Source: Candidatus Moraniibacteriota bacterium (GTDB taxonomy: Bacteria; Patescibacteriota; Minisyncoccia; Moranbacterales; UBA1568). From it: a stretch of 64,000 bases of DNA. Positions 30,767 to 51,543 of the stretch are shown piece after piece. The first letter of the stretch is position 1, and each line of letters opens with the position of its first letter. Location: contig JAGOSP010000003.1 in NCBI GenBank assembly GCA_018062205.1, forward strand, positions 17,220 through 81,219. The letters run 5' to 3'. Position numbers and translations under genes: made by a program. The notes beneath the pieces are model-generated. The model did no database searches and was not told the DNA's origin. It was given only the letters and a program-made list of their open reading frames with translations.

Positions 30767-30862
30767 ATTCTTCTTTCAAAATGCTCAACAAGGAAAAGAA
30801 AGGCTTTCGCCCTCCTCAAACCAAGGGTAATCATCAAATAAACACTGTGAGCTGCCAAAAAA

Positions 30863-33589: not shown

Positions 33590-33609
33590 ACTCTATTAAT
33601 ACCCTTAAC

Positions 33610-33939
33610 TTAATAAATTTTCCTGAAAATCAAAGACAAAGAAACTTCCAATGCTTCCTGAGAAAATCGTATTGGTTTCTTTGTTACAAAAACAACTACA
33701 TTATACCCTTCTGGCCACTTTTTTTGAAGCGACCGTGTTGCTTCTCGCGCCAAACGCTTAAATCGGTTTCGATTACTCGCCTTTTTTGCGTACTTTTTTG
33801 CGATAAGAAACGAGAATTTTGTCTCCTTAAGATTATTTTTTTGGAAACGAACACCAATATCCATGACAAAAAGAGGCTTCCCTTTGCGGAAAACCTCGTC
33901 AATATCTTCTTTGTGTAGCCGATTTGCTGACGGAAGCAT
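33610..33939 (-). CDS. rnpA: ribonuclease P protein component
   Basis: MLPSANRLHKEDIDEVFRKGK...SNRNRFKRLAREATR (RNR..KR..RE motif); follows rpmH. Confidence 0.85.
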   Translation of the reverse strand: MLPSANRLHKEDIDEVFRKGKPLFVMDIGVRFQKNNLKETKFSFLIAKKYAKKASNRNRFKRLAREATRSLQKKWPEGYNVVVFVTKKPIRFSQEALEVSLSLIFRKIY

Positions 33940-33947
33940 ACGGTTTT

Positions 33948-34085
33948 TTAGACCATGGTTAGTCTCTTTCGCCCAATGCGCCGTCGATTCTTAATGACGT
34001 TTCGACCATCAGAAGTATTCATGCGCTTCAAAAAGCCATGACGACGAGTTCTCCGACGAGTTTTCGGCTGATATGTACGCTTCAT
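33948..34085 (-). CDS. rpmH: 50S ribosomal protein L34
   Basis: Reverse-strand translation [45 protein letters not shown] (45 aa). It is not in the ORF track because it is under 60 aa. Confidence 0.9.
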
Positions 34086-34108
34086 AGCCAATACCTTAAT
34101 TCAAGCAC

Positions 34109-35743: not shown

Positions 35744-36024
35744 TTATGTATAAACACGCTTTTTACCTGGACATCGCCTCTATAATTCCATTTTATCTGT
35801 GGAAAAAATAGAATACTTTTTATTCACATTCCTCTATGATTAATTATCCTCGTTTTTATCCCACTCAATATTCAAATAAACTAACTCGTATTTCCTTCCA
35901 AAGAAGGAAGAAACAGACTTATCAACTTATCCACACTCCTAATAATAATAAGACTTTTTTTAAAAAATGGATTAATTCTTACTAAAGAAAAATCTCCCTT
36001 AATTCAAATTGTTTAAATATTTCT
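35744..36024. promoter_or_regulatory. candidate oriC (dnaA-dnaN intergenic): DnaA boxes plus AT-rich unwinding element
   Basis: Perfect TTATCCACA at 35927-35935, TGTGGAAAA (reverse TTTTCCACA) at 35798-35806, TTATCCCAC at ~35856-35864. An AT-rich stretch follows at 35936-36020 (AATAATAATAAGACTTTTTTTTAAAAAATGG...). Confidence 0.6.
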
Positions 36025-37155
36025 ATGAAACTTATTTGTACCCAAGAAAATCTTTCCCGATCAATCACTTACCTTGAGCGTATCACAGGGAAACAATCAA
36101 CATTACCTATATTGAGTAATATTCTTATTGAGGCTGAAAATGGGCGATTAAAACTCTCAGCAACTAATCTTGAGATTGGGGTAATTGTTAATATTGGTGC
36201 AAAAATAGAAGAAGAGGGAAAGATAACTATTCCAGCTAAACTTATAGGAAGTTTTATACATAATCTTCCTTCTGGGGATATTTTAAATCTTCAAACGGAA
36301 CAATCATCCCTTGTTATTCAAAGCACACAATATGAGGGGAAAATTAAAGGTATGGATGGAAAGGATTTTCCTATCATCCCTTGTTTTCAGGGCGAAGAAT
36401 ACCCATTTGTTTTTCCAGCTCAGTTTTTTAAAAACGCTCTTTCACAGATACTTTTTTGTGTAAGTCAAAATGAATCGCGAATGGAATTAACAGGGGTGAA
36501 TGTTTCTTTTGAAGAGAAATTCCTTTATTTAGCCGCCACAGATAGTTTTCGATTGGCTGAACAGACGTTTGAGCTTCCTTATGAAACACCGTCTACGCAG
36601 TCATTTATTATTCCAAGTGCAACATGTCAGGAGTTGCTTCGGATTATCACCCAGGAGAGCAAGGAGGTATTTGTAGCAATTGAAGAAAATCAGGCATTTT
36701 TTGAGGTGGATGGAGTAAAGATTGTTTCTCGGCTTATACATGGGAAATATCCTGATTATAAACAAATTATACCCATATCATTTCTTTCAACGTATCAAAT
36801 AAAAAGGGAGGAGCTTGTTCGCGCTGTAAAAATAACCAGCGTACTCTCTTCATATAATGCAGGAGAAATAACAATACGATTTACGGCTGGTTCTTCGGAG
36901 TGTAGTATTGAAGCGGTTTCTCAGGAAGTAGGTCAAAATAAAGCTCGTGTTCGTATTGAAAATCAATCAGGTGAAGATTTAGAACAAATTTTTACTTTTA
37001 ATCCGCGGTATGTTCTCGAGGGTTTAAACGCTTTTAAAGGAGAGTATGTTGTTTTTCATATAAACAATGCAACATCACCGGTAGTGTTGCGAGAAAAAGA
37101 GGGAGAGAAAGAAAAGGCACAATACTTCTATATCATGATGCCGGTACGAAAGTAG
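36025..37155 (+). CDS. dnaN: DNA polymerase III beta subunit (sliding clamp)
   Basis: 376 aa; MKLICTQENLSRSITYLERITG...LSATNLEIG, three-domain clamp size; follows dnaA. Confidence 0.9.
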   Translation: MKLICTQENLSRSITYLERITGKQSTLPILSNILIEAENGRLKLSATNLEIGVIVNIGAKIEEEGKITIPAKLIGSFIHNLPSGDILNLQTEQSSLVIQSTQYEGKIKGMDGKDFPIIPCFQGEEYPFVFPAQFFKNALSQILFCVSQNESRMELTGVNVSFEEKFLYLAATDSFRLAEQTFELPYETPSTQSFIIPSATCQELLRIITQESKEVFVAIEENQAFFEVDGVKIVSRLIHGKYPDYKQIIPISFLSTYQIKREELVRAVKITSVLSSYNAGEITIRFTAGSSECSIEAVSQEVGQNKARVRIENQSGEDLEQIFTFNPRYVLEGLNAFKGEYVVFHINNATSPVVLREKEGEKEKAQYFYIMMPVRK

Positions 37156-37163
37156 CAGAATAT

Positions 37164-37457
37164 ATGCGTTCACTAAAGGATTTGACAGTCAAGAGTGGGG
37201 GGTGGATTCAAGAGGAGCGGAAACTTGATGATAAGACCGTGTTTTTTGCGTTTGAGAAGGTGATTGGAGAGTGGTACGGAATGAAAGGAAGAGAGAATAT
37301 TTTTCCAGAACACTGGACTGATGGAGCTCTGCTTATTCGAGTTCGAAGTTCACTTTGGTTGAACGAACTTCTTTTAGAGAAAGAAAAACTTCAACGGGCA
37401 GTGAACGTTTTTTTGGGAGGAGAACCGGTAAAACAAATCACTTTTAAACGGGGATAA
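37164..37457 (+). CDS. DUF721-domain protein (DciA-like candidate helicase-loading factor)
   Basis: 97 aa; C-terminal ALLIRVRSSLWLNELLLEKEKLQRAVNVFLGGEPVKQITFKRG matches the DUF721 pattern (L.v.v.s..w..EL......l...ln..lG...v..i.fk.g); located immediately after dnaN. Confidence 0.45.
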   Translation: MRSLKDLTVKSGGWIQEERKLDDKTVFFAFEKVIGEWYGMKGRENIFPEHWTDGALLIRVRSSLWLNELLLEKEKLQRAVNVFLGGEPVKQITFKRG

Positions 37458-37497
37458 AAAAGAGGTGTAAAAAAATCTCTCTAAAATACGTATTTTT

Positions 37498-40089
37498 TTA
37501 GAAGTTCGCTTGAATTTTTCCGGAATCCGAAGCGGTGTTCCCGTTTTGATCAGTCACTTCTACGGAGACGGTTAAATCTGAACCATTTTTATCGATTGGG
37601 ACTGAATAAGAAATTGAATAAGGCTTCGATGAAGTTGACCCAATCTCATTTCCATTAATAGAATATCGGACCGATTTAATTCCGTAGGCTGCGTCAACAG
37701 AAACGGTGAGGCTAATGTTTTGTGAATTGTGAGAGCCAGCGGACGTGAAGCGAATTTTTGGTTCAAAACCACTAAAATCACTTGCTTTACAATCATCCTT
37801 TGGGGGTTCATCAAGAATAACCCCTTTTTTGTCAGAGTAATAATCTTTTACCCCTTTCTCCCAGTTTTTATATTGAGAATCTCGGTCGGGTTTGTCGGGA
37901 ATTGGTCCGCGCGGATCATCTCGGTTGATATAGAAGAGAATATCATGAGGGCTGATAAAATCTTTTTTTTCAACATCTTTGCTCCGGCAGTATTTATTGG
38001 CTTTACAATACTTATTTTTTTCTCCAGGAATTTCGCATACCTTAAGGCCTTCTTTTTGCTCCAGTTTTCCGGCAAGCATCGATTTATTTGTTTGCCCTTC
38101 ACCATCACCGATTTCATCATCAGGATTATATTTTGGAAATTCTTCGGTAGCAGTGTTTACCAGAATTTTTTCTAGAAAAGCGCGCCAAATTGGAGCAGCG
38201 ACATTTACTCCATCAGCACCTTCAGTCATGGGGCTATTATCGTTGTTTCCTGCCCAGACGCCAACCGCAATTGATGGAGTGTATCCAATGGTCCATCCAT
38301 CACGAAATTCATTTGTAGTACCTGTTTTTGCTGCTACAAGACGATCTTTAAAGGTAAGTGGGCTATTTTCTCCAAATACCCAAGCCCGATTTTCATTGTT
38401 AGACATGACTGAATCAAGCATCGCAATATATTTTTGGTCGACCACCTGTTCGCCCGGATTTTCTTGGTGTTCTTCAAGAACCGTTCCTTTTGAGTTTTCA
38501 ACCCGGAGAATAGCGGTTTTCTCATGCTTAATTCCATTGTTAGCAAGGGTTGCGTATGCACTAACATGATCAAGAAGGGTAACTTCGCCGCCACCAAGTA
38601 CCAAAGAGAGCCCGAGTTGGTCGGGATGGTTAAGTGTTGTAATTCCGAGGTTTTTGGCGAGGGCGATAGCGTCTTTTACTCCGACGAGGTAGAGGGTTTT
38701 AACTGCTGGAACATTAAGCGATCCACCAAAAGCTCTCATGAGCGAAATGGGTCCATGAAATTTACCGTCGTAGTTATTTGGCTGATAGCTCTTCCCTTCA
38801 GCGGTTTCAAACTCCGTCTTTGTATCATAAATAAGGGTTTCGGGAAGGTATCCCTTAATGAAGGCGGTGAGATAGACGTAGGGTTTAAAAGATGATCCTG
38901 GTTGTCGTTTAGAAATAGCGACATTAAAATTTGGTTCAAATGTACAGCTTTTTCCAGAAATACAGCCGGCTGGTTCTGACGCACCAAAGTAATCTTTTGA
39001 TCCAACAAAAGAGAGGATTTGACCGGTTCGAGGATCTATAGCAACAAGAGCTGCATTTGCAGCCTTCCAGCGCTTATTTTTTTCAGTATTAGTACGGATC
39101 GCTTCTTCAGCGGCCATTTGTTTGTCCCAGTCGAGTGTGGTGATGACCTTCATACCATTTTGTTCAATAGCCTGATTTCCATATTTATTTTCAAGGTATT
39201 CCTTGATGTACATGACAAAATGTGGAGCAGCGATAATGTTTTTTTGTGGCTTAATTTTTTGGAGAGTATCAATAGCAATCGCTTCATTGGCTTGATCGTC
39301 TGTAATATAGCCAATTTTAGCCATTTGTTTGAGAGCATAATCTTTGCGTGTCACGACTCGATCTGGGCGTGATCCATAGGGAGAATAGAAGGCAGTACCA
39401 CGCGGGAGAGAAGCAAGAAGTGCAGCTTCATCAAGAGTGAGCTCTCTGGCGGATTTACTAAAAAAAGTTTGAGCAGCGGATTCGATACCATAAGCATTTG
39501 ACCCATAGGGAATTTCATTGAGATACATAGCTAAAATTTCATCTTTAGTGAACTTTGCCTCAATCTCTAAAGAAAGGATAACCTCTTTCACTTTACGGGT
39601 AAGAGTTCTCTCGTTAGTGAGGAGAGAATTTTTAACAAATTGCTGGGTAATGGTTGAGGCGCCCTGCGCAGCATCTAGGGTAATGATATCTTTGAGAGCG
39701 GCGCGAAGGATGGCTTTTGGCTGGATACCAAAGTGCTGATAGAAGCCCTGATCTTCAAGAGAGAGGGTGGCGGCGCGCACTGATTCTGGGATATCTTTGA
39801 AATCAATAATAGTACGCTTTTCTTCACCGTGCACCTCATAGAGAAGATGGGTGCCGGTTCGGTCGTAAATCTTGGTGGATTCGATGATAAAGCGTTTATT
39901 AACATTGTTTGGACTTGGGAGGTCCTTCGCAATAAAAGCAAAAAGAGCGACCGTCGCGAGGAAGCCGAGGACAAAAAGCGCCGCAAAAATCTTGAGAGCA
40001 ATCCGGAGCACCTTTTGAGTTCGAGGCGAAGAGAGACCCTCCTCTGGATTTTTACGGCTTTTTTTCCGTAGAAATAAAGGATTTCGCAT
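37498..40089 (-). CDS. mrcA: class A penicillin-binding protein (PBP1A: GT51 transglycosylase + transpeptidase) with C-terminal beta-sandwich extension
   Basis: N-terminal TM anchor. GT51 motifs (EDQGFYQHFGI, GASTITQQ), transpeptidase SxxK (GSSFKP), SxN and KTG (AAKTGTT) motifs. A ~230-aa Ser/Thr/Asn-rich C-terminal domain follows. Confidence 0.85.
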   Translation of the reverse strand: MRNPLFLRKKSRKNPEEGLSSPRTQKVLRIALKIFAALFVLGFLATVALFAFIAKDLPSPNNVNKRFIIESTKIYDRTGTHLLYEVHGEEKRTIIDFKDIPESVRAATLSLEDQGFYQHFGIQPKAILRAALKDIITLDAAQGASTITQQFVKNSLLTNERTLTRKVKEVILSLEIEAKFTKDEILAMYLNEIPYGSNAYGIESAAQTFFSKSARELTLDEAALLASLPRGTAFYSPYGSRPDRVVTRKDYALKQMAKIGYITDDQANEAIAIDTLQKIKPQKNIIAAPHFVMYIKEYLENKYGNQAIEQNGMKVITTLDWDKQMAAEEAIRTNTEKNKRWKAANAALVAIDPRTGQILSFVGSKDYFGASEPAGCISGKSCTFEPNFNVAISKRQPGSSFKPYVYLTAFIKGYLPETLIYDTKTEFETAEGKSYQPNNYDGKFHGPISLMRAFGGSLNVPAVKTLYLVGVKDAIALAKNLGITTLNHPDQLGLSLVLGGGEVTLLDHVSAYATLANNGIKHEKTAILRVENSKGTVLEEHQENPGEQVVDQKYIAMLDSVMSNNENRAWVFGENSPLTFKDRLVAAKTGTTNEFRDGWTIGYTPSIAVGVWAGNNDNSPMTEGADGVNVAAPIWRAFLEKILVNTATEEFPKYNPDDEIGDGEGQTNKSMLAGKLEQKEGLKVCEIPGEKNKYCKANKYCRSKDVEKKDFISPHDILFYINRDDPRGPIPDKPDRDSQYKNWEKGVKDYYSDKKGVILDEPPKDDCKASDFSGFEPKIRFTSAGSHNSQNISLTVSVDAAYGIKSVRYSINGNEIGSTSSKPYSISYSVPIDKNGSDLTVSVEVTDQNGNTASDSGKIQANF

Positions 40090-40189
40090 ACCAAAACCAC
40101 TTAATAAGTAAGTGGAGTATAGCTTAAAAAGCGGGAAAATTCAAGGATTCTTTTGATGAGATAAGGAGAGGCCTTGTTTTGGGAGGCAG

Positions 40190-41143
40190 TTAGAGCTCTT
40201 TGCTAGAAGCGAGTTTTTCTAGACCATCCAGAAGACCATCGATAAAGGCTGGATACTGAGACATGTTTTCTTGAGGAAATCCGATTTGGTCATTGAGTTC
40301 AAAGACAAAGGGGGTATTTTGATTCTGAATGCCAAAATCGATAGAATAGAGAGGAAAGTTGAAAGTGGTATCGACAAGAGATTGAATTTTTTGAGCAGTA
40401 TTTTTAATGAAGTGAGGAATATTTTCTAATCGTATTTCCTGAAGAGAGCCTCCTTGCGCGACATTAGCTAACAAGGAGCCTTCTTTGGGGGTTCTTACGT
40501 GAGCCAGAGTCATTTTTCCGTTGACGATAATGATACGGAGATCATGATGACCCATGACTATATTCGGGATTCCTTTCGCGGTGTCAACAAATTCTTGGAG
40601 CACATATTCCATTTTTGGATTGAGCTCGGTTTGTTTCAGATTTGTCGGAAAATCAATAATAATTCCTTTCCCACACATACCGCGAGTCGGTTTTAAAACG
40701 ACGCGCGTATTTATTGGAAAGTTTTTAAGAGAGGATTGTAGCTCTGCTTGATTTCGAATAAGGACACTTTTTGGCATGAAGTCAGAAAGAAGTTCTTGCG
40801 TGGCATATTTATCATTACAAAGAAGCTTGAATGCTCGGCAGTTGAGCGTTTTTTGGCTCATTTGAGGAGAGGGAAAACTTGTCCCACCACTTCGATCATA
40901 AATAGCATCGGCGATAATCGGTTGATCGTGATATTGGAAAGATATTCCATCATACAGATAAGTATGAGCAAAAACATAATTACCAAGGCAATTTTCTTTC
41001 CCGCTTGCTAAGTGCATTTGGTAACCGCGGGCGATTCCTTTTTGAAATAAGCGGTGATAAACAGCGCGTTTCTTTCCAAAAGATGCGAAGGGATCTTGAT
41101 TGAGCATGAGTTTATGATAATAGATGACTATTTTTTTTCGCAT
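40190..41143 (-). CDS. ATP-grasp family protein (third ATP-grasp of the cluster)
   Basis: 317 aa; VVLKPTRGMCGKGIII (ATP-grasp Lys/Gly-rich loop), LQEFV, downstream acidic-loop region; start overlaps upstream gene by 16 bp. Confidence 0.55.
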   Translation of the reverse strand: MRKKIVIYYHKLMLNQDPFASFGKKRAVYHRLFQKGIARGYQMHLASGKENCLGNYVFAHTYLYDGISFQYHDQPIIADAIYDRSGGTSFPSPQMSQKTLNCRAFKLLCNDKYATQELLSDFMPKSVLIRNQAELQSSLKNFPINTRVVLKPTRGMCGKGIIIDFPTNLKQTELNPKMEYVLQEFVDTAKGIPNIVMGHHDLRIIIVNGKMTLAHVRTPKEGSLLANVAQGGSLQEIRLENIPHFIKNTAQKIQSLVDTTFNFPLYSIDFGIQNQNTPFVFELNDQIGFPQENMSQYPAFIDGLLDGLEKLASSKEL

Positions 41144-41997
41144 AGTATAAGGTAATTTGAAAGAGATCTTATTTCTGGAGAAATGATTTCGTCGAGTGTG
41201 AATGCTGGGCAGCTATTAACCTCAAAAACTATCGGAATACCAGAGCTATTTTCGATGACGTCGATGCCAGCTATTTGGATATTTGTTACCCGCGCGGCTA
41301 ATTCGGCGGTATCCTTTACTGTAGACGGGACTTGCTGAAGAGAGATGAATTCTTCTTTTGCCCCGAGGTGAACATTGTTTCGAAACTCCTCATCCTGAGA
41401 GCGAATTTTTTTCTCCGCGACAGCACTCTTATCTCCCATGACAAGAATACGATATTCAAAGGTATTTGGAATAAATTCCTGAAGAAATATTTCTCTTCCT
41501 ACTTTGGTAAGAGACCGCTCTTGTAGAATTTGCTGGAGTGATTCAATTGTTTTTGCAAGAAAAACACCGGATCCTTGAGAGGTATTCGTTTCTTTTACCA
41601 CTAGAGGCAGTCCGAGGTAAGCAACAGCATTCTTAATCTGTTTTTTTGTGTAGGTGGCCGAGACATACGTTTTTGGGATAGAGACATGATTGAGCGCCAG
41701 ATGAAACATTTGTAATATTTTTGCGACATCGGAGGAATCTTTCGTGTGAGTATGAAATCGATCAATAAAAAAAATATTATTTTTTATTGAAAGATGAGCA
41801 AGCATATGAGCGAGCCCTCGATACTTTCCGACCTTCCTCGGGTAAACCGTCGTCCACTTTTGAAGCGGAACGCCGGCTATATTCATTCGGACATCTCCTT
41901 TTTGGATAAAAACCTCAATTTCTTCAAAGTTCGATACGGAAAAGTCAAGAGATTTTTTATCGAGATGATTCTTAAGAAGGAGTAAAAATGTTTTCAT
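41128..41997 (-). CDS. RimK-like ATP-grasp ligase (alpha-L-glutamate ligase family)
   Basis: LVVKETNTSQGSGVFL, FLQEFIP...EYRILVMGDK, NVHLGA, IAGIDVI, VFEVNSCPAF: the RimK motif set in order. The track ORF starts at 42039; Met at 41997 (MKTFLLL) is likely. Confidence 0.7.
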   Translation of the reverse strand: MKTFLLLLKNHLDKKSLDFSVSNFEEIEVFIQKGDVRMNIAGVPLQKWTTVYPRKVGKYRGLAHMLAHLSIKNNIFFIDRFHTHTKDSSDVAKILQMFHLALNHVSIPKTYVSATYTKKQIKNAVAYLGLPLVVKETNTSQGSGVFLAKTIESLQQILQERSLTKVGREIFLQEFIPNTFEYRILVMGDKSAVAEKKIRSQDEEFRNNVHLGAKEEFISLQQVPSTVKDTAELAARVTNIQIAGIDVIENSSGIPIVFEVNSCPAFTLDEIISPEIRSLSNYLILCEKK

Positions 41998-42050
41998 TTT
42001 ACTTCCAATTTGTTTTTTGCTGGTTAGGATGAGAAGCATAGTTTTGATGA

Positions 42051-43445
42051 TTATTTATTCGTATCAATAAGAAATTTTGCAAGATTTTTTCGTCCAATAA
42101 TAATTGGGTAGCCAAGACGGGATCTGTCAATAACTGAAATTTTTGCGGGAAATTGAGTGGTATCCATAATGATTTCGATTTGAATCATAGGCCGGTAAGA
42201 AAAACCATGAGAAGAAGCAACTTTAGTTGTATCGGCGAGGTCCGGAATTCCTAAAAAGAGATTTTCTCGTTCTTCTTTGGAGAGCTCTTTAATGACATCG
42301 CGATCACCTATGCGATTTTGAAATTCATCGAGTACGGCTTCGAATCCAAGTTCTTTGGCAAGTTCGGTGTCGATAGCGGTGGAGTCAGCACCAGTATCGA
42401 TTTTGGCCTCGACTTCAATTTCCCTTCCATTTTTTCCGATGAGTGTTACTTTCTCGATGCAGCCAACAACTCTTCGCCCAGAGATTTCCTCAATTTCTTC
42501 TTCAATCTCTCCACCAAAAAGGTTGCGTCCGAGGCGCACGCCGCGTTCGGTGGTTTTGATATTGACGCCGCGTACGCGATCGAGTCGTTCTTTTAGCCCA
42601 GCAAAATTTGCGAGCTGGATGGAAAGACCGGGCCTGGCATTGAGTTCAAGGATGACAGGCCCTTGATCGCGGTCAATGGCGATATCAGCACCCAGAAAAC
42701 CGAGCGAGGAGATCGACTGTGCTTCAACAGCCATCGTGAGAATTTGTTTCCAGTAGGGGATTTTGATTCCCGAAAGAGGAAGACGTGTTCCTGGAACAGA
42801 CTCGATGATTTGTCCTTTCCCTATGATAGCTGAAGTGGTGGTACCCGTAGCGAGGTCGATACCAACGCCGATAGCACCTTGCTGGAGATTGGCTTTACCA
42901 TCGGAAGCACGAGTGGGGAGACGAAGCATCGCCATAACGGGGATACGGTTGAAAACAATAACGCGAATGTCGGGGATGCCTTTGTAGCTGTAGGGCTTGA
43001 AAAGTTTTAAGAGCTTGAGACGTTCTTCAAAGAAAGCAATGTCTGGAGTATTGGACAAAGAGAAAGACCCATCGAGAATGTTTTCGATATGCGTTTTCAG
43101 ATCATCAATAGTGACAAGACTCCCGTTCGCCTTGATCCATGCATCAGGGCGATTTTTTTTACGGGCATAGACGACGAGTATCCCTTCACCACCAAATCCG
43201 CGATTTGGTTTGAGAGCAAAGCTTGCTGGGAGCGCGGTCCAGTCAAAATTTTCAAGCTCTTCTCGCGAACGGATTTTTCCGATAAGAGCGGAGACAGGAA
43301 GTTTGGCCCGAATAAGCGTATGCTTGCAAAGTAGTTTTTGATCGGCGATTTTCATACCGCGACGACGGTTAAATGGGCGCACAAAATCAAGATTTCGGGC
43401 GTTCATTCCAAGAAGCTTCCGGCTATTTTTCCAGTATTCAAACAT
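42051..43445 (-). CDS. fusion protein: N-terminal ATP-grasp (alpha-L-glutamate-ligase-related, LGMNARN start) + C-terminal retropepsin-like putative protease (DUF785/'Zn_protease'-type)
   Basis: N-terminus KLLGMNARNLDFVRPFNRR...DQKLLCKHTL...FALKPNRGFGGEGILVV (ATP-grasp). C-terminal ~150 aa carries IEVEAKIDTGADSTAID...ISVIDRSRLGYPIIIGRKNL (aspartyl DTGA motif). Confidence 0.65.
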   Translation of the reverse strand: MFEYWKNSRKLLGMNARNLDFVRPFNRRRGMKIADQKLLCKHTLIRAKLPVSALIGKIRSREELENFDWTALPASFALKPNRGFGGEGILVVYARKKNRPDAWIKANGSLVTIDDLKTHIENILDGSFSLSNTPDIAFFEERLKLLKLFKPYSYKGIPDIRVIVFNRIPVMAMLRLPTRASDGKANLQQGAIGVGIDLATGTTTSAIIGKGQIIESVPGTRLPLSGIKIPYWKQILTMAVEAQSISSLGFLGADIAIDRDQGPVILELNARPGLSIQLANFAGLKERLDRVRGVNIKTTERGVRLGRNLFGGEIEEEIEEISGRRVVGCIEKVTLIGKNGREIEVEAKIDTGADSTAIDTELAKELGFEAVLDEFQNRIGDRDVIKELSKEERENLFLGIPDLADTTKVASSHGFSYRPMIQIEIIMDTTQFPAKISVIDRSRLGYPIIIGRKNLAKFLIDTNK

Positions 43446-43609
43446 ATGTTTTGTTCAGATGCACCTGAAGTACGTCTGGTTGAGAATATTTTGAAGAGTC
43501 TAAAAGATGCTTTCCAAGAGACAGAATGGACTTTTTCTTTGCTGTATGTTCGGAAACATGGGGCATCAGAAAAAGTCCATTCTGTCTCTTGATTGAGGGC
43601 CAATCGAGA

Positions 43610-44311
43610 TTAGAGATGTTTGAAGACTTGGCGGAAACGCCAGTATTCCGAGAGACGAAGTCCAGACCATTTCCCCAGTGTGATATTGATGATGAAGGTG
43701 AGTACTATAATCCACAGCGGGTAGGTCAAAAGAAGATCCGTCACAAAAGTAGACTTGATAAGAAAGTACCCAACCGTAGAAATGATGAGCGTTTCTGCAG
43801 CGAGGATGAGCGCAATACGTGTACCTTTCTCAATTTGAGTGGAGACAAATTTCTCGGCGAGAGTAATCATAATCAGAAGCGGAAAGACGGAAGCGCCAGC
43901 AAAACCGGTGCGATTGTTGTGCCCTCCAATAAGAAGCAGGAGGAGTATAGCGAGAGAAATAATGGAAAGAGTAATGGCGACGCGCGGGAGATAGAGAAGG
44001 CGGAATCGCTTGAGACCGAAGCGCGAAAGCATGCCGACGATAATAATGGAAACAAAAACAGCGACGCCATATTTCAGCTCACCCATAGCGAAGAGGGCGA
44101 ACGTGATAATAGAAGGTGTATAAATACCGAAGGCTTTAATCCCAATAACTTGACGGAAAATGGCGACGAGAGTTGCAATGAGAGGAAGCATCAGAAGAAG
44201 AGTGACCGTGAGAAGGGGGACTCCTTCGGAAGCAAAATATTGTACAAGTGGATGATAATTCATAGCGCCATGATGAAAAAAATAAACCTCGAAATAACAC
44301 GAAATTTTCAA
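43610..44311 (-). CDS. 7-transmembrane protein (7TM partner of ATP-grasp/RimK-associated systems)
   Basis: 233 aa, ~7 hydrophobic helices, no soluble domain; located at the head of the ATP-grasp operon on the same strand. Confidence 0.55.
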   Translation of the reverse strand: MKISCYFEVYFFHHGAMNYHPLVQYFASEGVPLLTVTLLLMLPLIATLVAIFRQVIGIKAFGIYTPSIITFALFAMGELKYGVAVFVSIIIVGMLSRFGLKRFRLLYLPRVAITLSIISLAILLLLLIGGHNNRTGFAGASVFPLLIMITLAEKFVSTQIEKGTRIALILAAETLIISTVGYFLIKSTFVTDLLLTYPLWIIVLTFIINITLGKWSGLRLSEYWRFRQVFKHL

Positions 44312-44326
44312 AAAAGAATGGGCTTT

Positions 44327-44818
44327 TTACTGATTATGCAGAGCCTCTACTTTCCGTCGACTGGCATGACAGAGGGCGATGGCAAGCGCATCGGCGGTAT
44401 CATCGGGCTTTGGAATGGCAGCAAGTTTCAGAATTGCCTTGACCATAAGCTGCACCTGAGTTTTGTCAGCGCGGCCGTAGTTTGTCAGGGCTTGTTTCAC
44501 TTCAAGCGGAGTGTAACCAGAGATACTAACACGTAAACGCTCTAAAGTCAAGAGTATTGCACCGCGGGCTTGGGCCACAGAGATAACCGTTTTTTGGTTA
44601 TTAAAAAAGAAAAGTTCTTCAACGCCAGCCTCTTCTGGCTGGTAGAGTTCGACAATTTGCTTGATATTGTCTGCAATTTCAGCGAGACGCTTTTCAAGAG
44701 GGAGATCTTTGGAAGTAGAGATGTGTCCATAAGCCACAGAAAGTGTTTCTGCTCCATGGAGCTCGATAACTCCCCAGCCAACGGTCGCCGTGCCAGGATC
44801 AATGCCAAGAATGCGCAT
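44327..44818 (-). CDS. ruvC: crossover junction endodeoxyribonuclease RuvC
   Basis: MRILGIDPGTATVGWGVIE...catalytic Asp/Glu pattern (DPG, EELFF, DDTADALAIALCH). The track ORF extends to 44944; Met at 44818 is the likely start. Confidence 0.85.
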   Translation of the reverse strand: MRILGIDPGTATVGWGVIELHGAETLSVAYGHISTSKDLPLEKRLAEIADNIKQIVELYQPEEAGVEELFFFNNQKTVISVAQARGAILLTLERLRVSISGYTPLEVKQALTNYGRADKTQVQLMVKAILKLAAIPKPDDTADALAIALCHASRRKVEALHNQ

Positions 44819-45099
44819 ATGAATACCAGTGTTACTAACTAATCCGCAATTCAGACTTTGCCAGCCGAAACCAACGAGAGTTGATTTAGAATGAGTAATT
44901 ATTTTCCATAAACAAAAGCACCTCAACAATAAATATCCTTTCAATATGACCCTCTAAATAAAGTATAGAACAAAAACTGGATAGTGTATTGTGAGAATTA
45001 TGAAGCAGGGAAGATTATTCTTATAAAGAAGAGAGAAATCAAAAAAAAGAGTGGATGCATATTTTTTCACCCACTTTTTTCTTTTGGGTCTTTTCCTGT

Positions 45100-45816
45100 C
45101 TAGGCCAAGTTGTCCCAGACGGTTTGAACATCTTGGTGGTCTTCGAGAAGTTCTTTGAGTTTTTCGTATTTCTCTAAATCAGCCGGGGAGAGGGAGATGG
45201 TTTGGGTGGGGAGGTAGCCGAGCTCAGCGCTCTCAGGTTCGAAATTTCTGGAAACGAAATAGGTGCGGACTGCTTGGAGATTTTCGGGATGAGTAATAAC
45301 CAGAAACACTTCTTCTTCGAGGCGAAAGTCATCAGCGCCAGAGTCGAGCGTTTCGAGTTCGAGCGTTTCGGCGGAATACTTCTCCAAAGCAAAGACGATA
45401 ATTCCAACATGACGGAACATAAAGGAAACTGAGCCGGTTGGAACAAACTTACCACCATTTTTTGTGAGAATTGTTTTGACATCACCGACGCTGCGGTTTT
45501 TGTTGTCAGTGAGGCCTTCAATCAAGAGCGCAACTTGATTGGGGCCATAGGCTTCGTAGAGGACGGAATCAATAACGGTACCATCTTTTAGTTCGCCGCT
45601 CCCGGCCTTAATGGCGCGATCAATATTCTCCTTGGGCATGTTCATACTTCGCGCGGTATCAACAGCGAGACGGAGCTTGAAGTTCATGGCGGGGTCTATC
45701 CCTTCACGAGCGGCGATGGTGATGAGGCGGCCATGTTTGGTAAAAATAGCGCCACGCTTGGCGTCATTAATGCCTTTTTTGTGTCGAATACCGGCCCAGT
45801 GAGAATGTCCTGACAT
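45100..45816 (-). CDS. yebC: YebC/PmpR family DNA-binding transcriptional regulator
   Basis: MSGHSHWAGIRHKKGINDAKRGAIFTK signature N-terminus, 238 aa. Confidence 0.85.
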   Translation of the reverse strand: MSGHSHWAGIRHKKGINDAKRGAIFTKHGRLITIAAREGIDPAMNFKLRLAVDTARSMNMPKENIDRAIKAGSGELKDGTVIDSVLYEAYGPNQVALLIEGLTDNKNRSVGDVKTILTKNGGKFVPTGSVSFMFRHVGIIVFALEKYSAETLELETLDSGADDFRLEEEVFLVITHPENLQAVRTYFVSRNFEPESAELGYLPTQTISLSPADLEKYEKLKELLEDHQDVQTVWDNLA

Positions 45817-45909
45817 AGAAAAAGAAAAAAAGAAGTATCAAACAAAGCCTAGACAGAAAAACAAAAAAAATCAAGAGAGATAGCCTTTCTGATTTTGTTG
45901 ACGATTGGA

Positions 45910-46491
45910 CTAGGCGATGTATTTCCCGACGTTGATTTTTTCGTTGATTTTACGCGCTTCTTCGGGAGTGCTTGATCGTGAGAGCTGCATGACCATATCT
46001 TTGATGGTGTAGGGATCGGGAATCTGCCGGAAAACAAAACGCTCTTCTTCAGCTGCAGTTTGCACGTAGACATCACCAAAATTGAGAATGGTTGGGATGA
46101 AGCCATCGACAACAGAGGTAACGTCTTGAATGCGTGAAAACTGGAGTTCACTCACTTCGCGATTAAAAAGACCTTTCTGCTCAATGTTCACTATGCGCTG
46201 ACTGGTGATAATCCATACGTCAAAATAATAGTCCACCCAAACAAGAAATGCATAGAGCCAAATAAAAAGAAGAAAGGTATTCAGGAGAAAGGCAAGAAAG
46301 GCGGGCTGGAGTGCGTCTGAAGAGAGCTGGGCCATTTGCGGGAGAAGAGAGAAAACCACGATAAGGAGGAGTGTGGTGCACCAGATGCCTACGTACTGAA
46401 GGAAAATATTAAACCAATGCCGGTGAATGATGCGGAGCAGCTCTTCATTTTCACGCTGACCTTGGAAATGGTATCGAGAGAATCGAGACAT
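45910..46491 (-). CDS. membrane protein with bacterial PH-like (YdbS/YdbT-type) domain
   Basis: Two TM helices followed by a ~100-aa soluble domain; start uncertain (track 46542; Met at 46491). Confidence 0.4.
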   Translation of the reverse strand: MSRFSRYHFQGQRENEELLRIIHRHWFNIFLQYVGIWCTTLLLIVVFSLLPQMAQLSSDALQPAFLAFLLNTFLLFIWLYAFLVWVDYYFDVWIITSQRIVNIEQKGLFNREVSELQFSRIQDVTSVVDGFIPTILNFGDVYVQTAAEEERFVFRQIPDPYTIKDMVMQLSRSSTPEEARKINEKINVGKYIA

Positions 46492-46792
46492 AGCGAAATA
46501 ATTAGAAACCACCGGATTGAGGAAACACCATGCTGCCGCCAAGGAGCGTGTCGAGAGGGAGACTCGAAAAAAGAGAAAGGTTTATGAGGAAGAAAAGGCC
46601 GAATACAATAAGAAAAAACGAAACACCGAAGAGGGCATTCGTGCGACAGAGTGAGTAGCGGAGGATATGAAATACAATAAACCCAGCCGAAGCGAGATAG
46701 GTCACGATGAGGACGGAATAGAAGGCCCAAGCGATAAGTTGCATGAAAATGTATTTGTTTTATGACCCCAGTATACTGCTTCGGCGTAGTTT

Positions 46793-47797
46793 TCAAAAGA
46801 GGTAAGCACTATCGGGAGGGATAAGTCCGAGGTGTTTGTAGCCATCAGGAGTGACGACGCGGCCACGGGGGGTACGGGCGATGAAGCCAAGTTGGATAAG
46901 ATAGGGTTCATATACATCTTCAATTGTTTGTTCTTCTTCGCCAATGACAGAGGCAACGGCACGGATGCCAGCGGGGCCACCGCGGAACTTCTCGATAATT
47001 GCGCGGAGCATGTGGCGATCGGTGGGCTCAAGGCCAAGTGGGTCGATTTCAAAGAGAGCGAGTGCCTCTTTGGCTGAGACTGCGTCAATTTTATTTTCAC
47101 GATGGACTTGGGCATAGTCTCGAACCCGTTTCAGTATACGGTTAGCAACTCGTGGTGTTTGGCGGCTTGAGTGAGCAATAATCTCAGCACCAGCATCATT
47201 GAGTTCGACACCAAGAATACGAGCAGAGCGAAGAACGATGCGTTTGATTTCTGCCGGAGTGTAAAATTCTAAACGATGAGTGGAGCCAAAGCGATTGCGG
47301 AGCGGATTGGAAAGCGAACCGAGCTTGGTGGTCGCGCCAATGAGGGTAAATTTGGGGAGATCAAGTTGAATCGTGCGTGCCGAAGGGCCTTTGCCAATAA
47401 TGATGTCGAGCTTGTAGTCCTCCATAGCCGGATAGAGCACCTCCTCGATGGATTTGTTGAGACGATGGATTTCGTCTATAAACAACACGTCACCGGGCTC
47501 AAGATTGGTGAGAATAGAGCCGAGGTCACCGACTTTTTCAATCGCTGGACCAGAGGTAATGCGAATATTTACCCCCATTTCTTTTGCGATAATATGGGAG
47601 AGAGTTGTTTTGCCGAGGCCAGCCGATCCGTAGAGAAGAACGTGTTCGATATTTTCCCCACGATGTTTAGCTGCTTCGATGAAGATATGAAGGTTTCGTT
47701 TGATTTTTTCTTGGCCAACATAATCAGCGAATGCCTGTGGGCGCAGGGTGTTGTCGAAAATTTCTTCTTCAGGGAGGGATTGTTCTGTGGTAAGCAT
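46793..47797 (-). CDS. ruvB: Holliday junction branch migration ATPase RuvB
   Basis: Walker [11 protein letters not shown], Walker [12 protein letters not shown], sensor motifs, 334 aa. Confidence 0.92.
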
Positions 47798-48029
47798 AAA
47801 AAAAGAGGATTCGTAGACTGATGGTTTACTTGCAGGGAGAGTGATATGTAGCGGTTAAAACGAAAGAGGGGTCTTTGGAAGAAGTGTGGATAGTTTTGGC
47901 TTCAATAAAAGGAAAAGAATGCTCTTCCTGCTACAGAATACCACGACTTGACAAGAAATCAAAGCTATGCTAACATAAAAAGTCGTTGTGCTGTGAGGCT
48001 CTTCGGCACAGTCCTGTAGTTTTGTTTTT

Positions 48030-48350
48030 ACAAAAGAAAGATCACTTGATCTGTAGACAATCGGAGGTCTCTATCTTTGCCTCTGATCTCGGGAACTTTT
48101 TGTCCCGCACCTATTTGGGATCGGTTTTCCTCTTTGGAAGAGGAAAATCTTTTTGTGTGAACTCTAAAATGGGTTCATATCTCAAAGAGGCGCGGGATTT
48201 GCCCAGATCGGGTAGTGTGGTTTCGGCTGCGCTATTCCTCGACACTGTTCCTTTCCTCTCGCTCCCATGTGAGAGGCCTGTCTACAGATCAAGATATCTT
48301 TCTTCAAAATAAATCTCGTCTCGCATAAAGTGAGGCGTTTTTTGTTTTTT
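48030..48350 (+). ncRNA. candidate structured non-coding element (unassigned family)
   Basis: GC-richer intergenic segment. A 15-nt perfect long-range pairing joins CTTGATCTGTAGACA (48045-48059) with TGTCTACAGATCAAG (48279-48293). Internal features are a 10-bp perfect hairpin TTTTCCTCTT-TGG-AAGAGGAAAA (48137-48159) followed by TCTTTTT, a further hairpin at 47992-48020, and a T-rich 3' end (48340-48350). Confidence 0.3.
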
Positions 48351-48412
48351 CTTAAAAAACTCTCGGTGTTTTCCGGAGTAGTTTTTAGGAAGAGTCCCGC
48401 CTGTGAGTAGGG

Positions 48413-51472: not shown

Positions 51473-51543
51473 TAGAGAATTGTGGAATGAAAAAAAACAG
51501 CCCTGTCGGCTGATGGAGTAAAAAAATCCTTTCTTCGGGATGT

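What the first reader, a model, noticed from the sequence alone, without database searches (positions are those of the whole stretch)
40190..44311. Four-gene operon: 7TM membrane protein + ATP-grasp::retropepsin-like fusion + RimK-like ATP-grasp + third ATP-grasp; a predicted peptide-ligase/peptide-tagging system
Seen in sequence: on the minus strand, in order, there is a 233-aa 7-helix membrane protein; a 464-aa protein with an N-terminal ATP-grasp (LGMNARN...KPNRGFGGEGI) and a C-terminal DTGA aspartyl-protease-like domain; a RimK-motif ATP-grasp (start 11 bp after the previous stop); and a third ATP-grasp overlapping the previous gene by 16 bp. Established knowledge: comparative-genomics work on amidoligases predicted conserved operons that link RimK-like 'alpha-L-glutamate ligase-related' ATP-grasps with a DUF785 retropepsin-like 'putative ATP-dependent zinc protease' and a 7TM protein (often fused to an inactive transglutaminase). 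These were proposed to make and process poly-amino-acid (for example poly-alpha-glutamate) tails on a protein or metabolite, coupled to a membrane sensor. Essentially none has been characterised experimentally. Inference: this locus encodes such a system in a compact form (protease fused to ligase, 7TM without transglutaminase) and adds a third ligase, suggesting a multi-step peptide product. In a reduced genome, three dedicated ATP-grasp ligases is a striking investment.
Basis: partly seen in the sequence, partly recalled or inferred. Interest (0 to 1): 0.75.

Follow-up and report, generated by a model that had tools for sequence, protein, structure and literature searches.

The report
Rlo-like ligase–protease operon, CPR variant
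A Moranbacteria (CPR) operon encodes a membrane protein, an amino-acid ligase fused to a retrovirus-type protease, and two extra strain-variable ligases; it is a compact, rearranged relative of the Pseudomonas Rlo stress-tolerance system described in 2025, whose chemical product is still unknown.

Summary
They are 7TM_transglut without the transglutaminase domain, ATPgrasp_ST/RloC-like ligase fused to a DUF785/RloA-like retropepsin, a RimK-like ATP-grasp, and a divergent GshB/RimK-like ATP-grasp. The C-domain models as a retropepsin. Three corrections apply.

1. The system type is no longer uncharacterised: rloABC of P. aeruginosa and RimB/RimK were studied in 2025.
2. Only the 7TM + fusion pair is conserved (54 of 54 loci, across several Patescibacteria lineages). 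The two extra ligases are a swappable cassette. In the closest relatives (89% fusion identity) they are replaced, exactly between the fusion stop codon and the PBP1a promoter, by one unrelated ATP-grasp gene. Other cassettes hold MATCAP peptidases, DUF3541, or GT4.
3. The protease is cytoplasmic here, not secreted.

New observation: the linker LFGGEIEEEIEE is the most conserved stretch of the fusion. AF2 models it with low confidence, stand-alone RloC lacks it, and it resembles the Glu-rich substrates of RloA/RimB.

Best reading: a membrane-associated cycle that builds and trims an acidic peptide, with strain-specific elaboration. The product and acceptor are unknown. This is a new variant of a known kind and is moderately interesting.

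The parts
43610..44263 (-). 7TM membrane protein (RloB-type 7TM module, no transglutaminase domain). Probable start is the ATG at 44263 (217 aa); the mechanical ORF extends to a TTG at 44311.
   Evidence: PF14402 scores 3.7e-24 (86 bits, cut-off 25). NF052267 RloB matches only model positions 313-507 of 508. It aligns to the C-terminal 7TM part of Legionella RloB. Seven hydrophobic segments with K/R-rich loops and tail give N-out/C-in topology. Start inferred from orthologues.
43513..43593 (-). Long hairpin (24-bp stem) in the 164-nt 7TM-fusion spacer. It has no U-tract and its role is unknown; possibilities include an attenuator, a processing or stability element, or a palindromic insertion.
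   Evidence: Perfect 20-nt inverted arms at 43517-43536 and 43570-43589, unique in the window. RNA MFE is -55.7 kcal/mol, z = -7.3. It is kept in L001/L002 with one compensatory pair change. No Rfam family matches it.
42531..43445 (-). RloC-like ATP-grasp ligase domain of the fusion (residues 1-305).
   Evidence: PF14397 ATPgrasp_ST 1.9e-69; TIGR02291 6.8e-87. About 40% identical to Legionella and Aeromonas RloC over residues 1-307. K79, E267 and N269 (the ELN Mg/ATP motif) are invariant. Best fold matches are ArgX, RimK and cyanophycin synthetase.
42486..42521 (-). Invariant acidic linker LFGGEIEEEIEE (residues 309-320). Candidate built-in substrate, pseudosubstrate, or docking element.
   Evidence: It is the longest run of >=90% conserved columns in the whole protein, even among lineages only 41-52% identical overall. 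AF2 gives pLDDT <50 for 311-324. It is absent from stand-alone RloC and from the fusions paired with long-form 7TM proteins. It generalises to GGE-x-E-x-E-x-E.
42054..42470 (-). RloA/RimB-like retropepsin (DUF785) domain of the fusion (residues 326-464). The catalytic DTGA is at 42387-42398.
   Evidence: PF05618 scores 2.8e-7 (30.9 bits, cut-off 27); NF052264 RloA3 scores 1e-9. phmmer hits the RloA crystal structures 9g58 and 9g59. The AF2 C-domain model (pLDDT 79.7) gave 49 PDB matches at E <=1e-3, and every listed match is a retropepsin-fold protease: DUF785 2pma, HTLV/HIV proteases, RloA, APRc, Ddi1. Equivalents of the polyGlu-coordinating residues are K348, R418 and R441, all invariant.
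41128..42039 (-). Accessory ATP-grasp ligase 1 (RimK-like).
   Evidence: PF08443 scores 2.7e-25. TIGR00768 gives 93 bits against a cut-off of 143, and the S6-Glu ligase equivalog gives 57 against 331, so it is RimK-like but not an equivalog. The best solved relative is Pseudomonas RimK 7qys at 1.4e-15, with the RxNxHxG and EVN motifs kept.
40190..41143 (-). Accessory ATP-grasp ligase 2 (divergent, GshB/RimK-like).
   Evidence: PF08443 2e-10, PF02955 4e-10, PF14397 2e-9. The only solved relative is GshB 1gsa at E 2e-3. Only 214 word-sharing homologues were found, and identity falls quickly to about 50%.
40157..42042 (-). Swappable accessory cassette (both extra ligases), bounded by the fusion stop codon and the PBP1a promoter region.
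   Evidence: blastn homology to the closest relatives L001-L003 stops at window 42043-42050 and resumes at 40145-40156. Those loci carry one unrelated ATP-grasp gene there instead.
40097..40115 (-). Terminator-like hairpin plus T-run after the last ligase gene, 8 nt before the PBP1a start codon.
   Evidence: It is the only minus-strand terminator-like site in 39900-45100. This is a consensus match only.

Best explanation
This is the Patescibacteria (CPR) form of the Rlo-type system. Its conserved core is two genes: a 7TM membrane protein (the RloB membrane module without the periplasmic inactive transglutaminase) and one cytoplasmic polypeptide that joins an RloC-type ATP-grasp amino-acid ligase to an RloA/RimB-type homodimeric retropepsin.

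Proposed mechanism:
- The ligase domain works at the inner face of the membrane with the 7TM partner. It uses ATP to add L-amino acids, most probably glutamate, to a carboxylate acceptor and so builds an acidic alpha-linked peptide or tail.
- The fused protease has a basic, Glu-coordinating cleft. It cleaves such acidic stretches, so synthesis and trimming are held at 1:1 stoichiometry in the same compartment.
- The two downstream ATP-grasp ligases (RimK-like and GshB-like) belong to a strain-variable accessory cassette that primes, extends, or caps the product with further residues.
- By analogy with Pseudomonas, the physiological output is probably envelope or osmotic homeostasis.

Shown here: domain identities, the retropepsin fold, intact catalytic motifs in all four enzymatic domains, cytoplasmic location of the enzymes, invariant 7TM-fusion linkage, cassette exchange, and Rosetta-stone fusions.

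Inferred: glutamate as the substrate, the nature of the acceptor, physical coupling to the 7TM protein, and the physiological role.
For: - HMM assignments are as described. Over residues 1-307 the fusion is about 40% identical to RloC in the canonical Legionella rloA-rloB-rloC operon.
- The C-domain has a retropepsin fold and gives sequence hits to the RloA crystal structures.
- DTGA and the equivalents of RloA K46/R114/R137 (K348, R418, R441) are invariant. Those RloA residues bind polyGlu and are needed in vitro and in vivo (PMC12239564).
- The ATP-grasp K and E-x-N motifs are intact in all three ligases.
- The 7TM gene lies directly upstream in 54 of 54 loci, and the two genes often overlap by 1-20 nt. 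These loci span Moranbacteria, Paceibacteria, Parcubacteria and Dojkabacteria/WS6.
- Accessory enzymes are physically fused to the core in other lineages: ATPgrasp_ST::retropepsin::MATCAP::ATP-grasp::YdjC.
- In 40 of the 45 loci where downstream genes were called, at least one gene after the fusion clusters with, or scores in Pfam as, an ATP-grasp ligase.
- In Pseudomonas, deleting rloB or rloC rescues the triple protease mutant. This means the ligase and membrane protein make something the protease must process (PMC12239564).
Against: - No product or acceptor is identified here or in any organism.
- TIGR02291 falls just below its trusted cut-off (291 vs 314 bits).
- Glutamate specificity is extrapolated from RimK/RimB/RloA, whose enzymes need >=5-8 contiguous Glu.
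- The protease sits in a different compartment from RloA (cytoplasm vs periplasm), so the logic of the Pseudomonas system may not transfer.
- The 164-nt spacer with a strong hairpin between the 7TM and fusion genes could uncouple their expression in this genome.
- The accessory ligases are not universal. Some Paceibacteria and Dojkabacteria loci have none nearby, so they may serve a separable function.
Confidence: 0.6

Rival explanations
1. Self-processing or self-priming enzyme. The invariant GGEIEEEIEE linker is the protease's own target or pseudosubstrate. The dimeric retropepsin either cuts the linker, as a retroviral protease cuts itself out of a polyprotein, or is auto-inhibited by it. 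Cleavage would free the two domains and leave a C-terminal Glu tail on the ligase that ATP-grasp ligases could then extend.
For: - The linker is the most conserved 12 residues of the protein, ahead of the catalytic motifs, yet AF2 models it with low confidence.
- It lies 5 residues before the protease domain.
- It is missing from stand-alone RloC.
- Six of its 8 core residues are Glu, and RloA/RimB cleave internal Glu-rich stretches through an eight-residue cleft (PMC12239564, PMC11957791).
- RimK naturally extends a C-terminal Glu-Glu.
Against: - Characterised RimB and RloA need >=5-6 and >=8 contiguous Glu respectively, and bulky residues inside the run abolish cleavage (PMC11957791 Table 1; PMC12239564). 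EIEEEIEE has at most 3 contiguous Glu.
- Variants EIEQEIEE and EIEREIEE exist.
- Triple fusions have no second acidic motif at the next domain junction.
- Fusions lacking the motif keep DTGA and the basic residues.
- No multimer model or biochemical test was possible.
Confidence: 0.15
2. Envelope glycopolymer or peptidoglycan decoration. The ligases attach amino acids or short peptides to a sugar-linked or lipid-linked cell-wall precursor, with the 7TM protein acting as membrane scaffold or translocator. The variable cassette would then diversify surface chemistry.
For: - The core ligase belongs to the 'sugar-transfer associated' ATP-grasp family.
- Some cassettes carry a GT4 glycosyltransferase, and one fusion carries a YdjC-type sugar deacetylase.
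- In Moranbacteria the locus always sits next to the PBP1a gene.
- Pseudomonas rlo mutants have cell-shape, beta-lactam, and hypo-osmotic phenotypes (PMC12239564).
- Cassette hypervariability is typical of surface-structure loci.
Against: - PBP1a linkage is absent outside Moranbacteria, so it may simply be synteny near oriC.
- GT4 and YdjC occur in a minority of loci.
- The protease's basic cleft and the MATCAP partners point to peptide tails rather than glycans.
- No Mur, Fem, or flippase genes lie in the operon.
Confidence: 0.15
3. The two downstream ligases are unrelated housekeeping enzymes (RimK for ribosomal protein S6 and a glutathione-synthetase-like enzyme) that merely sit next to a two-gene Rlo-like module.
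For: - The best solved relative of gene 3 is RimK and that of gene 4 is GshB.
- Both genes are missing from the closest relatives, which keep the core.
Against: - Both score far below the equivalog cut-offs: 57 vs 331 bits for S6-Glu ligase and 41 vs 272 bits for glutathione synthase.
- Housekeeping genes would not be replaced by non-homologous ATP-grasp genes at the same slot in 80%-identical genomes, nor diverge to 35% identity while the flanking genes stay at 69-75%.
- Gene spacing is 11 nt and a 16-nt overlap.
- ATP-grasp and MATCAP domains are fused to the core protein elsewhere.
Confidence: 0.07
4. A graspetide/RiPP maturation cluster or an anti-phage defence cassette.
For: - ATP-grasp enzymes mature graspetides; gene 3 gives weak hits to ATP-grasp RiPP maturases at 1e-5.
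- The cassette is hypervariable.
Against: - Those hits score 25 bits against a cut-off of 350.
- There is no room for a precursor-peptide gene: the only intergenic gaps are 11 nt, the hairpin spacer, and the PBP1a promoter.
- No PADLOC model matches any of the four proteins.
- The core is a single-copy gene pair at a fixed position near oriC.
Confidence: 0.03

Closest known systems
RloABC operon of Pseudomonas aeruginosa (retropepsin RloA, 7TM + inactive transglutaminase RloB, ATP-grasp RloC; PMC12239564). A canonical example was fetched here from a Legionella adelaidensis plasmid (L062).
   Same: All three protein modules are homologous: RloC-type ATP-grasp (about 40% identity), the RloB 7TM module, and a DUF785 retropepsin with DTG and the basic polyGlu-binding residues. 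The 7TM gene immediately precedes the ligase gene in both.
   Different: Here the protease is fused to the C-terminus of the ligase and has no signal peptide, so it is cytoplasmic rather than periplasmic. The 7TM protein lacks the roughly 300-aa periplasmic transglutaminase-like domain. An invariant acidic linker is present. A variable cassette of extra ligases and peptidases follows. The host is a CPR bacterium rather than a gammaproteobacterium; the paper reports 96% of RloB hits in Proteobacteria.
RimB-RimK and the RimBK hybrid of Desulfotalea psychrophila (PMC11957791)
   Same: A Glu-specific retropepsin is paired with, or fused to, an ATP-grasp alpha-L-glutamate ligase in the cytoplasm, so the ligase and its opposing endopeptidase are in one system. 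Gene 3 of this locus is RimK-like.
   Different: In RimBK the protease is N-terminal and the ligase is a true RimK. Here the protease is C-terminal and the ligase belongs to the RloC/ATPgrasp_ST family. No 7TM partner is described for Rim in that paper. The Rim target, ribosomal protein S6, is known, whereas no target is known here.
Amidoligase operons predicted by comparative genomics (Iyer, Abhiman, Burroughs & Aravind 2009, Mol Biosyst 5:1636; cited from memory and via the reference list of PMC12096838; full text not held)
   Same: These operons link RimK-like/ATPgrasp_ST ligases, the DUF785 peptidase, 7TM-transglutaminase proteins, and DUF1704/MATCAP-type peptidases, and were proposed to build and trim peptide tails.
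   Different: I could not read the paper, so I cannot say whether the CPR fusion, the acidic linker, or the cassette exchange were described there.
Eukaryotic tubulin-tail code (TTL/TTLL ATP-grasp ligases with MATCAP/VASH and CCP peptidases)
   Same: This is a functional analogy. ATP-grasp ligases that add Glu or other residues to an acidic C-terminal tail are opposed by dedicated peptidases. MATCAP-family domains occur in the cassettes and are fused to the core protein in relatives.
   Different: No MATCAP gene is in this window, no tubulin-like acceptor is identified, and homology is at the domain-family level only.

Membership tests
Rlo system (RloA-RloB-RloC) | RloC-type ATP-grasp ('alpha-L-glutamate ligase-like', TIGR02291 / PF14397) | tested here: met
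   PF14397 scores 234 bits (cut-off 31). TIGR02291 scores 291 bits, just under its 314 cut-off, because the model's C-terminal 26 positions are replaced by the linker. About 40% identity to Legionella and Aeromonas RloC.
Rlo system (RloA-RloB-RloC) | RloB: seven-TM module fused to a periplasmic inactive transglutaminase domain | tested here: not met
   The 7TM module is present (PF14402, 86 bits), but only RloB model positions 313-507 of 508 are matched. The protein is 217-233 aa against 508 aa for RloB, so there is no transglutaminase domain.
Rlo system (RloA-RloB-RloC) | RloA: secreted (signal-peptide-bearing) retropepsin with DTG and basic polyGlu-binding residues | tested here: inconclusive
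   The fold, DTGA, and K348/R418/R441 are present. However, the domain is fused behind a cytoplasmic ATP-grasp with no signal peptide or TM segment, so the 'secreted' criterion fails.
Rlo system (RloA-RloB-RloC) | The three functions are encoded in one operon | tested here: met
   The 7TM gene is directly upstream of the fusion in 54 of 54 loci. No minus-strand terminator-like site lies inside the operon, though a strong hairpin sits in the spacer.
Rlo system (RloA-RloB-RloC) | Role in hypo-osmotic tolerance, cell shape and antibiotic tolerance; protease loss is rescued by ligase or 7TM loss | not testable with these tools
   This requires genetics in the host or a surrogate.
Clan AA retropepsin / DUF785 (PF05618) | Retropepsin fold with catalytic D-T/S-G; active as a homodimer | tested here: met
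   PF05618 scores 30.9 bits (cut-off 27). Foldseek gave 49 matches at E <=1e-3, and every listed match is a retropepsin-fold protease; TM-score normalised to the target is 0.5-0.7. DTGA is invariant. Dimerisation was not testable.
RimK (ribosomal protein S6--L-glutamate ligase) | Score above the RimK family or equivalog cut-offs (TIGR00768 143 bits; PRK10446 331 bits) | tested here: not met
   Gene 3 scores 93 and 57 bits. Gene 4 scores 50 bits on TIGR00768. The fusion scores 34 bits. Only the Pfam RimK-like domain is met.
RimBK hybrid | N-terminal RimB protease fused to a C-terminal true RimK | tested here: not met
   The domain order is reversed (ligase 1-305, protease 326-464) and the ligase is the RloC/ATPgrasp_ST type.
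   Ddl scores <=32 bits (cut-offs 243-246). Cyanophycin synthetase scores <=38 bits (cut-offs 850-877). Glutathione synthase scores <=41 bits (cut-off 272).
Known anti-phage defence systems (PADLOC) | Any PADLOC model hit | tested here: not met
   No hits for any of the four proteins at E <=0.01.

The most novel reading that the evidence does not exclude
The invariant GGEIEEEIEE linker is a built-in substrate. The fused retropepsin dimer cuts its own polyprotein there, as a retroviral protease does. This frees the protease and leaves a C-terminal oligo-Glu stub on the ligase, which the RloC-like and accessory ATP-grasp ligases then extend and the protease re-trims. The result would be a self-primed, self-limiting polyglutamylation switch at the membrane. 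The strain-variable ligase cassette would write a lineage-specific peptide tail.
Probability: 0.12. Interest if true: 0.85.

Novelty: new variant of a known kind. Interest (0 to 1): 0.58.

Why it matters
The Rlo system affects osmotic tolerance, biofilm formation, cell shape, and beta-lactam tolerance in Pseudomonas, but its product and substrate are unknown.

The CPR version packs the ligase and the opposing protease into one soluble 52-kDa protein with only a small 7TM partner. It also carries a conserved Glu-rich segment that is an obvious candidate substrate. That makes it a simpler object for in-vitro reconstitution and mass spectrometry than the three-compartment Pseudomonas system.

Its fixed presence in minimal CPR genomes across several classes argues for a basic cellular role. 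The rapidly exchanged ligase and peptidase cassette suggests the product is diversified between strains. That is relevant to how these episymbionts build or vary their envelope.

The MATCAP and ATP-grasp fusions add bacterial examples of the ligase-versus-peptidase logic known from the tubulin code.

Tried and rejected
- Foldseek with the full-length model returned only ATP-grasp matches and masked the C-domain. I therefore modelled the C-domain separately.
- I looked for a second acidic motif at the protease-MATCAP or protease-ATP-grasp junction of triple fusions, as a test of polyprotein-style processing. None was found.
- I looked for natural split genes that end or start at the linker. Most short hits are contig-end fragments, so this was uninformative.
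- Rfam search of the operon: the hairpin gives only sub-threshold miRNA-precursor matches, which are chance hits.
- PADLOC: no hits, so the defence reading was dropped.
- Graspetide/RiPP reading dropped: scores are far below cut-off and there is no room for a precursor gene.
- The Iyer et al. 2009 amidoligase paper (PMC3268129) is not held, so the comparison with it rests on memory.
- Literature searches for a CPR/Patescibacteria description of this fusion found nothing.
- The repeat finder was rejected for a minus-strand region and replaced by the DNA search plus folding.
- Promoter scan: 15 sigma-70-like sites against 8.7 ± 3.1 expected. This is not informative, and CPR promoters are not covered.

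Full report
**1. Observation**

The four minus-strand ORFs are at the stated coordinates with the stated lengths and spacings:
- 43610-44311 (233 aa, TTG start)
- 42051-43445 (464 aa)
- 41128-42039 (303 aa, 11 nt after the previous stop)
- 40190-41143 (317 aa, 16-nt overlap)

The first protein has seven hydrophobic segments. Its K/R-rich loops and tail give N-out/C-in topology. The three ligases have no TM segment or signal peptide. Orthologues of the 7TM protein are 213-230 aa long and begin at the equivalent of M17, so its real start is probably the ATG at 44263, giving 217 aa.

Context: YidC, DnaA and DnaN lie at 32.9-37.2 kb, where the GC skew changes sign. The locus is therefore 4-8 kb from the replication origin. 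It sits between the PBP1a gene (37498-40089) and ruvC (44327-44944). The closest homologues are all Candidatus Moranbacteria, in the CPR/Patescibacteria.

**2. Family assignment**

- 7TM protein: 7TM_transglut at 86 bits. It matches only positions 313-507 of the 508-position RloB model, so it has the membrane module but not the transglutaminase-like domain.
- Fusion protein: ATPgrasp_ST at 234 bits and TIGR02291 'alpha-L-glutamate ligase-like' at 291 bits (cut-off 314) over residues 8-293. Zn_protease/DUF785 scores 30.9 bits (cut-off 27) and RloA3 scores 1e-9 over residues 323-460.
- Gene 3: RimK-like (PF08443, 89.5 bits), but below the RimK family and S6-ligase equivalog cut-offs. Its nearest solved relative is Pseudomonas RimK.
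- Gene 4: a divergent ATP-grasp at about 40 bits to RimK, GSH-S and ATPgrasp_ST. Its only solved relative is GshB at E = 2e-3.

**3. The protease domain is a retropepsin**

phmmer finds the RloA crystal structures 9g58 and 9g59. An AF2 model of residues 300-464 (pLDDT 79.7) gave 49 PDB matches at E <=1e-3. Every listed match is a retropepsin-fold protease: DUF785 Lpg0085, HTLV-1 and HIV-1 proteases, RloA, Rickettsia APRc, and Ddi1.

DTGA (residues 350-353) is invariant. So are K348, R418 and R441, the equivalents of RloA K46, R114 and R137. In RloA those residues coordinate a polyGlu substrate and are needed for activity in vitro and in vivo (PMC12239564). Compared with RloA, the domain carries a helical insertion of about 40 residues after the DTGA strand.

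The full-length model (pLDDT 75.9) matches ArgX/LysX, RimK and cyanophycin synthetase best in its N-domain. All are ATP-grasp ligases that extend peptide or protein carboxylates.

**4. What is already known**

- In P. aeruginosa the rloA-rloB-rloC operon was studied in 2025. RloA proteases are secreted retropepsins that cleave stretches of >=8 Glu. The triple protease mutant dies in hypo-osmotic medium and has defects in shape, biofilm formation, and beta-lactam tolerance. Deleting rloB or rloC rescues it (PMC12239564).
- RimB is the cytoplasmic homologue. It trims the polyGlu tail that RimK adds to ribosomal protein S6. A RimB-RimK hybrid with the protease at the N-terminus exists (PMC11957791).
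- The product of RloC and the substrate of RloA remain unknown.
- A canonical rloABC operon from a Legionella plasmid was fetched for comparison. Stand-alone RloC (314 aa) ends exactly where the linker of the window's fusion begins.

**5. Conservation: a two-gene core**

A scan of one genome per species found 61 loci encoding the fusion. They come from Moranbacteria, Paceibacteria, Parcubacteria, Dojkabacteria/WS6, and a few MAGs with doubtful labels.

In all 54 loci with enough upstream DNA, the 7TM gene lies directly upstream. The spacer is usually between -20 and +60 nt.

In the window itself the spacer is 164 nt and holds a 24-bp-stem hairpin (z = -7.3). The two closest relatives keep this hairpin with one compensatory change. 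It has no U-tract and its function is unknown.

**6. The extra ligases are an exchangeable cassette**

In Moranbacteria the gene order is RuvB-YebC-RuvC-7TM-fusion-[1-4 variable genes]-PBP1a.

The closest relatives have about 80% nucleotide identity to the window. Their protein identities are fusion 89%, RuvC 95%, 7TM 94% and PBP1a 86%. They lack both of the window's extra ligases. Nucleotide homology stops at the fusion stop codon (window 42043-42050) and resumes at 40145-40156, in the PBP1a promoter region. A single ATP-grasp gene of another class fills the gap.

Where homologues of the two ligases do occur, they are far more diverged than their neighbours. In L005, for example, the fusion is 75% and PBP1a 69% identical, but the ligases are 35-36%.

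Across loci the cassette contains:
- ATP-grasp ligases of at least three classes
- RimK::DUF3541 fusions
- MATCAP/DUF1704 carboxypeptidase homologues
- GT4 glycosyltransferases
- proteins of about 600 aa with no Pfam match

Functional linkage to the core is supported by Rosetta-stone proteins found with the C-domain as query:
- ATPgrasp_ST::retropepsin::MATCAP (five representatives)
- ATPgrasp_ST::retropepsin::ATP-grasp
- retropepsin::ATP-grasp
- ATPgrasp_ST::retropepsin::YdjC

**7. The acidic linker**

Between the two domains lies LFGGEIEEEIEE(I/L)SG(K/R). It is the longest run of >=90% conserved columns in the protein. It is more conserved than NARPGL, GKANL or DTGA, even among lineages only 41-52% identical overall. 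AF2 gives it pLDDT below 50.

It is absent from stand-alone RloC. It is also absent from a distant subgroup of fusions whose 7TM partners carry an extra signal/TM segment and a Pro/Thr/Ser-rich extracellular stretch. That subgroup mostly keeps DTGA and the basic cleft residues; L059, whose protease is degenerate, is the exception.

More distant representatives generalise the motif to GGE-x-E-x-E-x-E. This is an alternating pattern that would put all the Glu side chains on one face of an extended strand.

It resembles, but does not equal, the contiguous-Glu substrates of RimB (>=5-6 Glu) and RloA (>=8 Glu). Possible roles are self-cleavage site or primer, auto-inhibitory pseudosubstrate, dimer-interface strand, or docking element for the basic cytoplasmic loops and tail of the 7TM protein. 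I could not discriminate between these. The one test I could run, for a second acidic motif at the next junction of triple fusions, was negative.

**8. Most likely mechanism (confidence about 0.6)**

The system is a membrane-associated, cytoplasmic cycle that builds and trims a peptide.

- The RloC-like domain builds an acidic alpha-peptide or tail, probably Glu-rich.
- The fused retropepsin trims it, at fixed 1:1 stoichiometry with the ligase.
- The 7TM protein anchors, regulates, or exports.
- The accessory ligases (and peptidases in other strains) elaborate the product in a strain-specific way.

The Pseudomonas epistasis data fit this logic: loss of the ligase or the membrane protein rescues loss of the protease.

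The main differences from Rlo are the compartment of the protease, the missing transglutaminase-like domain, the linker, and the cassette.

Rivals:
- self-processing or self-priming (0.15; a refinement rather than a contradiction)
- glycopolymer or peptidoglycan decoration (0.15)
- unrelated housekeeping neighbours (0.07)
- RiPP or defence system (0.03; no PADLOC hits and no room for a precursor gene)

**9. Verdict**

It is out of date on the state of knowledge, and it is wrong to treat the four genes as one conserved unit.

This is a new variant of a known kind. I found no description of the CPR fusion, its linker, or the cassette exchange in the held literature. I could not read the 2009 amidoligase survey.

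Interest is moderate. The family is known and partly characterised. The compact fused form, the invariant substrate-like linker, and the swappable ligase cassette give concrete, testable handles on the open question of what Rlo-type systems make.

Noticed in passing
window 43513-43593 (minus strand): A 24-bp-stem hairpin with perfect 20-nt arms lies in the 7TM-fusion spacer. It is unique in the window (z = -7.3) and has no U-tract. L001 and L002 keep it with one compensatory pair change. It matches no Rfam family.
   Followed up: partly
L001:2735-2988 and L002:5622-5809: In the two closest relatives the same spacer carries an extra long palindromic insert of about 190-255 nt that folds into one giant hairpin. 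It looks like a MITE-type insertion that the window lacks.
   Followed up: partly
window 32858-52695: This is the replication-origin region: YidC (-), DnaA (34109-35743, +) and DnaN (36025, +), with the GC-skew sign change at about 34-36 kb. By skew, the next roughly 15 kb of genes to the right (PBP1a, this operon, ruvC, yebC, ruvB, the pilB-like gene) all lie on the lagging strand, head-on to replication.
   Followed up: partly
window 48413-51472 (minus strand): A 1019-aa protein contains two complete T2SSE/PilB-type secretion ATPase domains in tandem (737 bits, two stretches) plus an MshEN domain. This is an internally duplicated pilus/secretion ATPase.
   Followed up: partly
window 26668-32314 (minus strand): A surface-polysaccharide cluster holds two adjacent Wzy_C (O-antigen ligase/polymerase-like) genes and a Wzx-type flippase. 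It lies in a stretch with unusually high AT skew (+0.19 to +0.21).
   Followed up: no
window 43526-44536 (plus strand): A 336-aa ORF runs antisense to the 7TM gene and ruvC. Its low-complexity, charged composition suggests a shadow ORF rather than a gene.
   Followed up: no
L053:728-3538; P0202: In one Patescibacteria MAG the slot after the fusion holds a single 936-aa protein with at least two ATP-grasp modules, in place of separate genes. Separately, one homologue of the third ligase is fused to a GNAT acetyltransferase domain (463 aa).
   Followed up: partly
L040:4292-4702, L041:7427-7840, L042:11794-12207, L039:9034-9447: In Paceibacteria-type loci a 137-aa RNase H-like (RVT_3) gene and a roughly 480-aa protein with no Pfam match lie downstream of the fusion. 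In L040 and L041 they follow it directly, where Moranbacteria have ligases.
   Followed up: no
L059:5983-7260; L048:5989-7476: Some distant fusions have a degenerate protease domain (NTS instead of DTG in L059; loss of the Arg equivalents in L048). This suggests the protease has been inactivated in those lineages while the ligase motifs are kept.
   Followed up: partly
L001-L003, L006, L010 and L050-L057 (record titles): Many MAG records carrying this Moranbacteria-syntenic locus are titled 'uncultured Bdellovibrionales' or 'uncultured Gammaproteobacteria'. Given the gene content and synteny, the Bdellovibrionales labels on the Moranbacteria-syntenic loci look like taxonomic mislabels; the Gammaproteobacteria-labelled loci lack that synteny, so their labels are merely doubtful.
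   Followed up: no
window 45910-46542 (minus strand): A 210-aa membrane protein with a bacterial PH domain (bPH_2) lies between yebC and ruvB. It belongs to the conserved syntenic block and its function is unknown.
   Followed up: no
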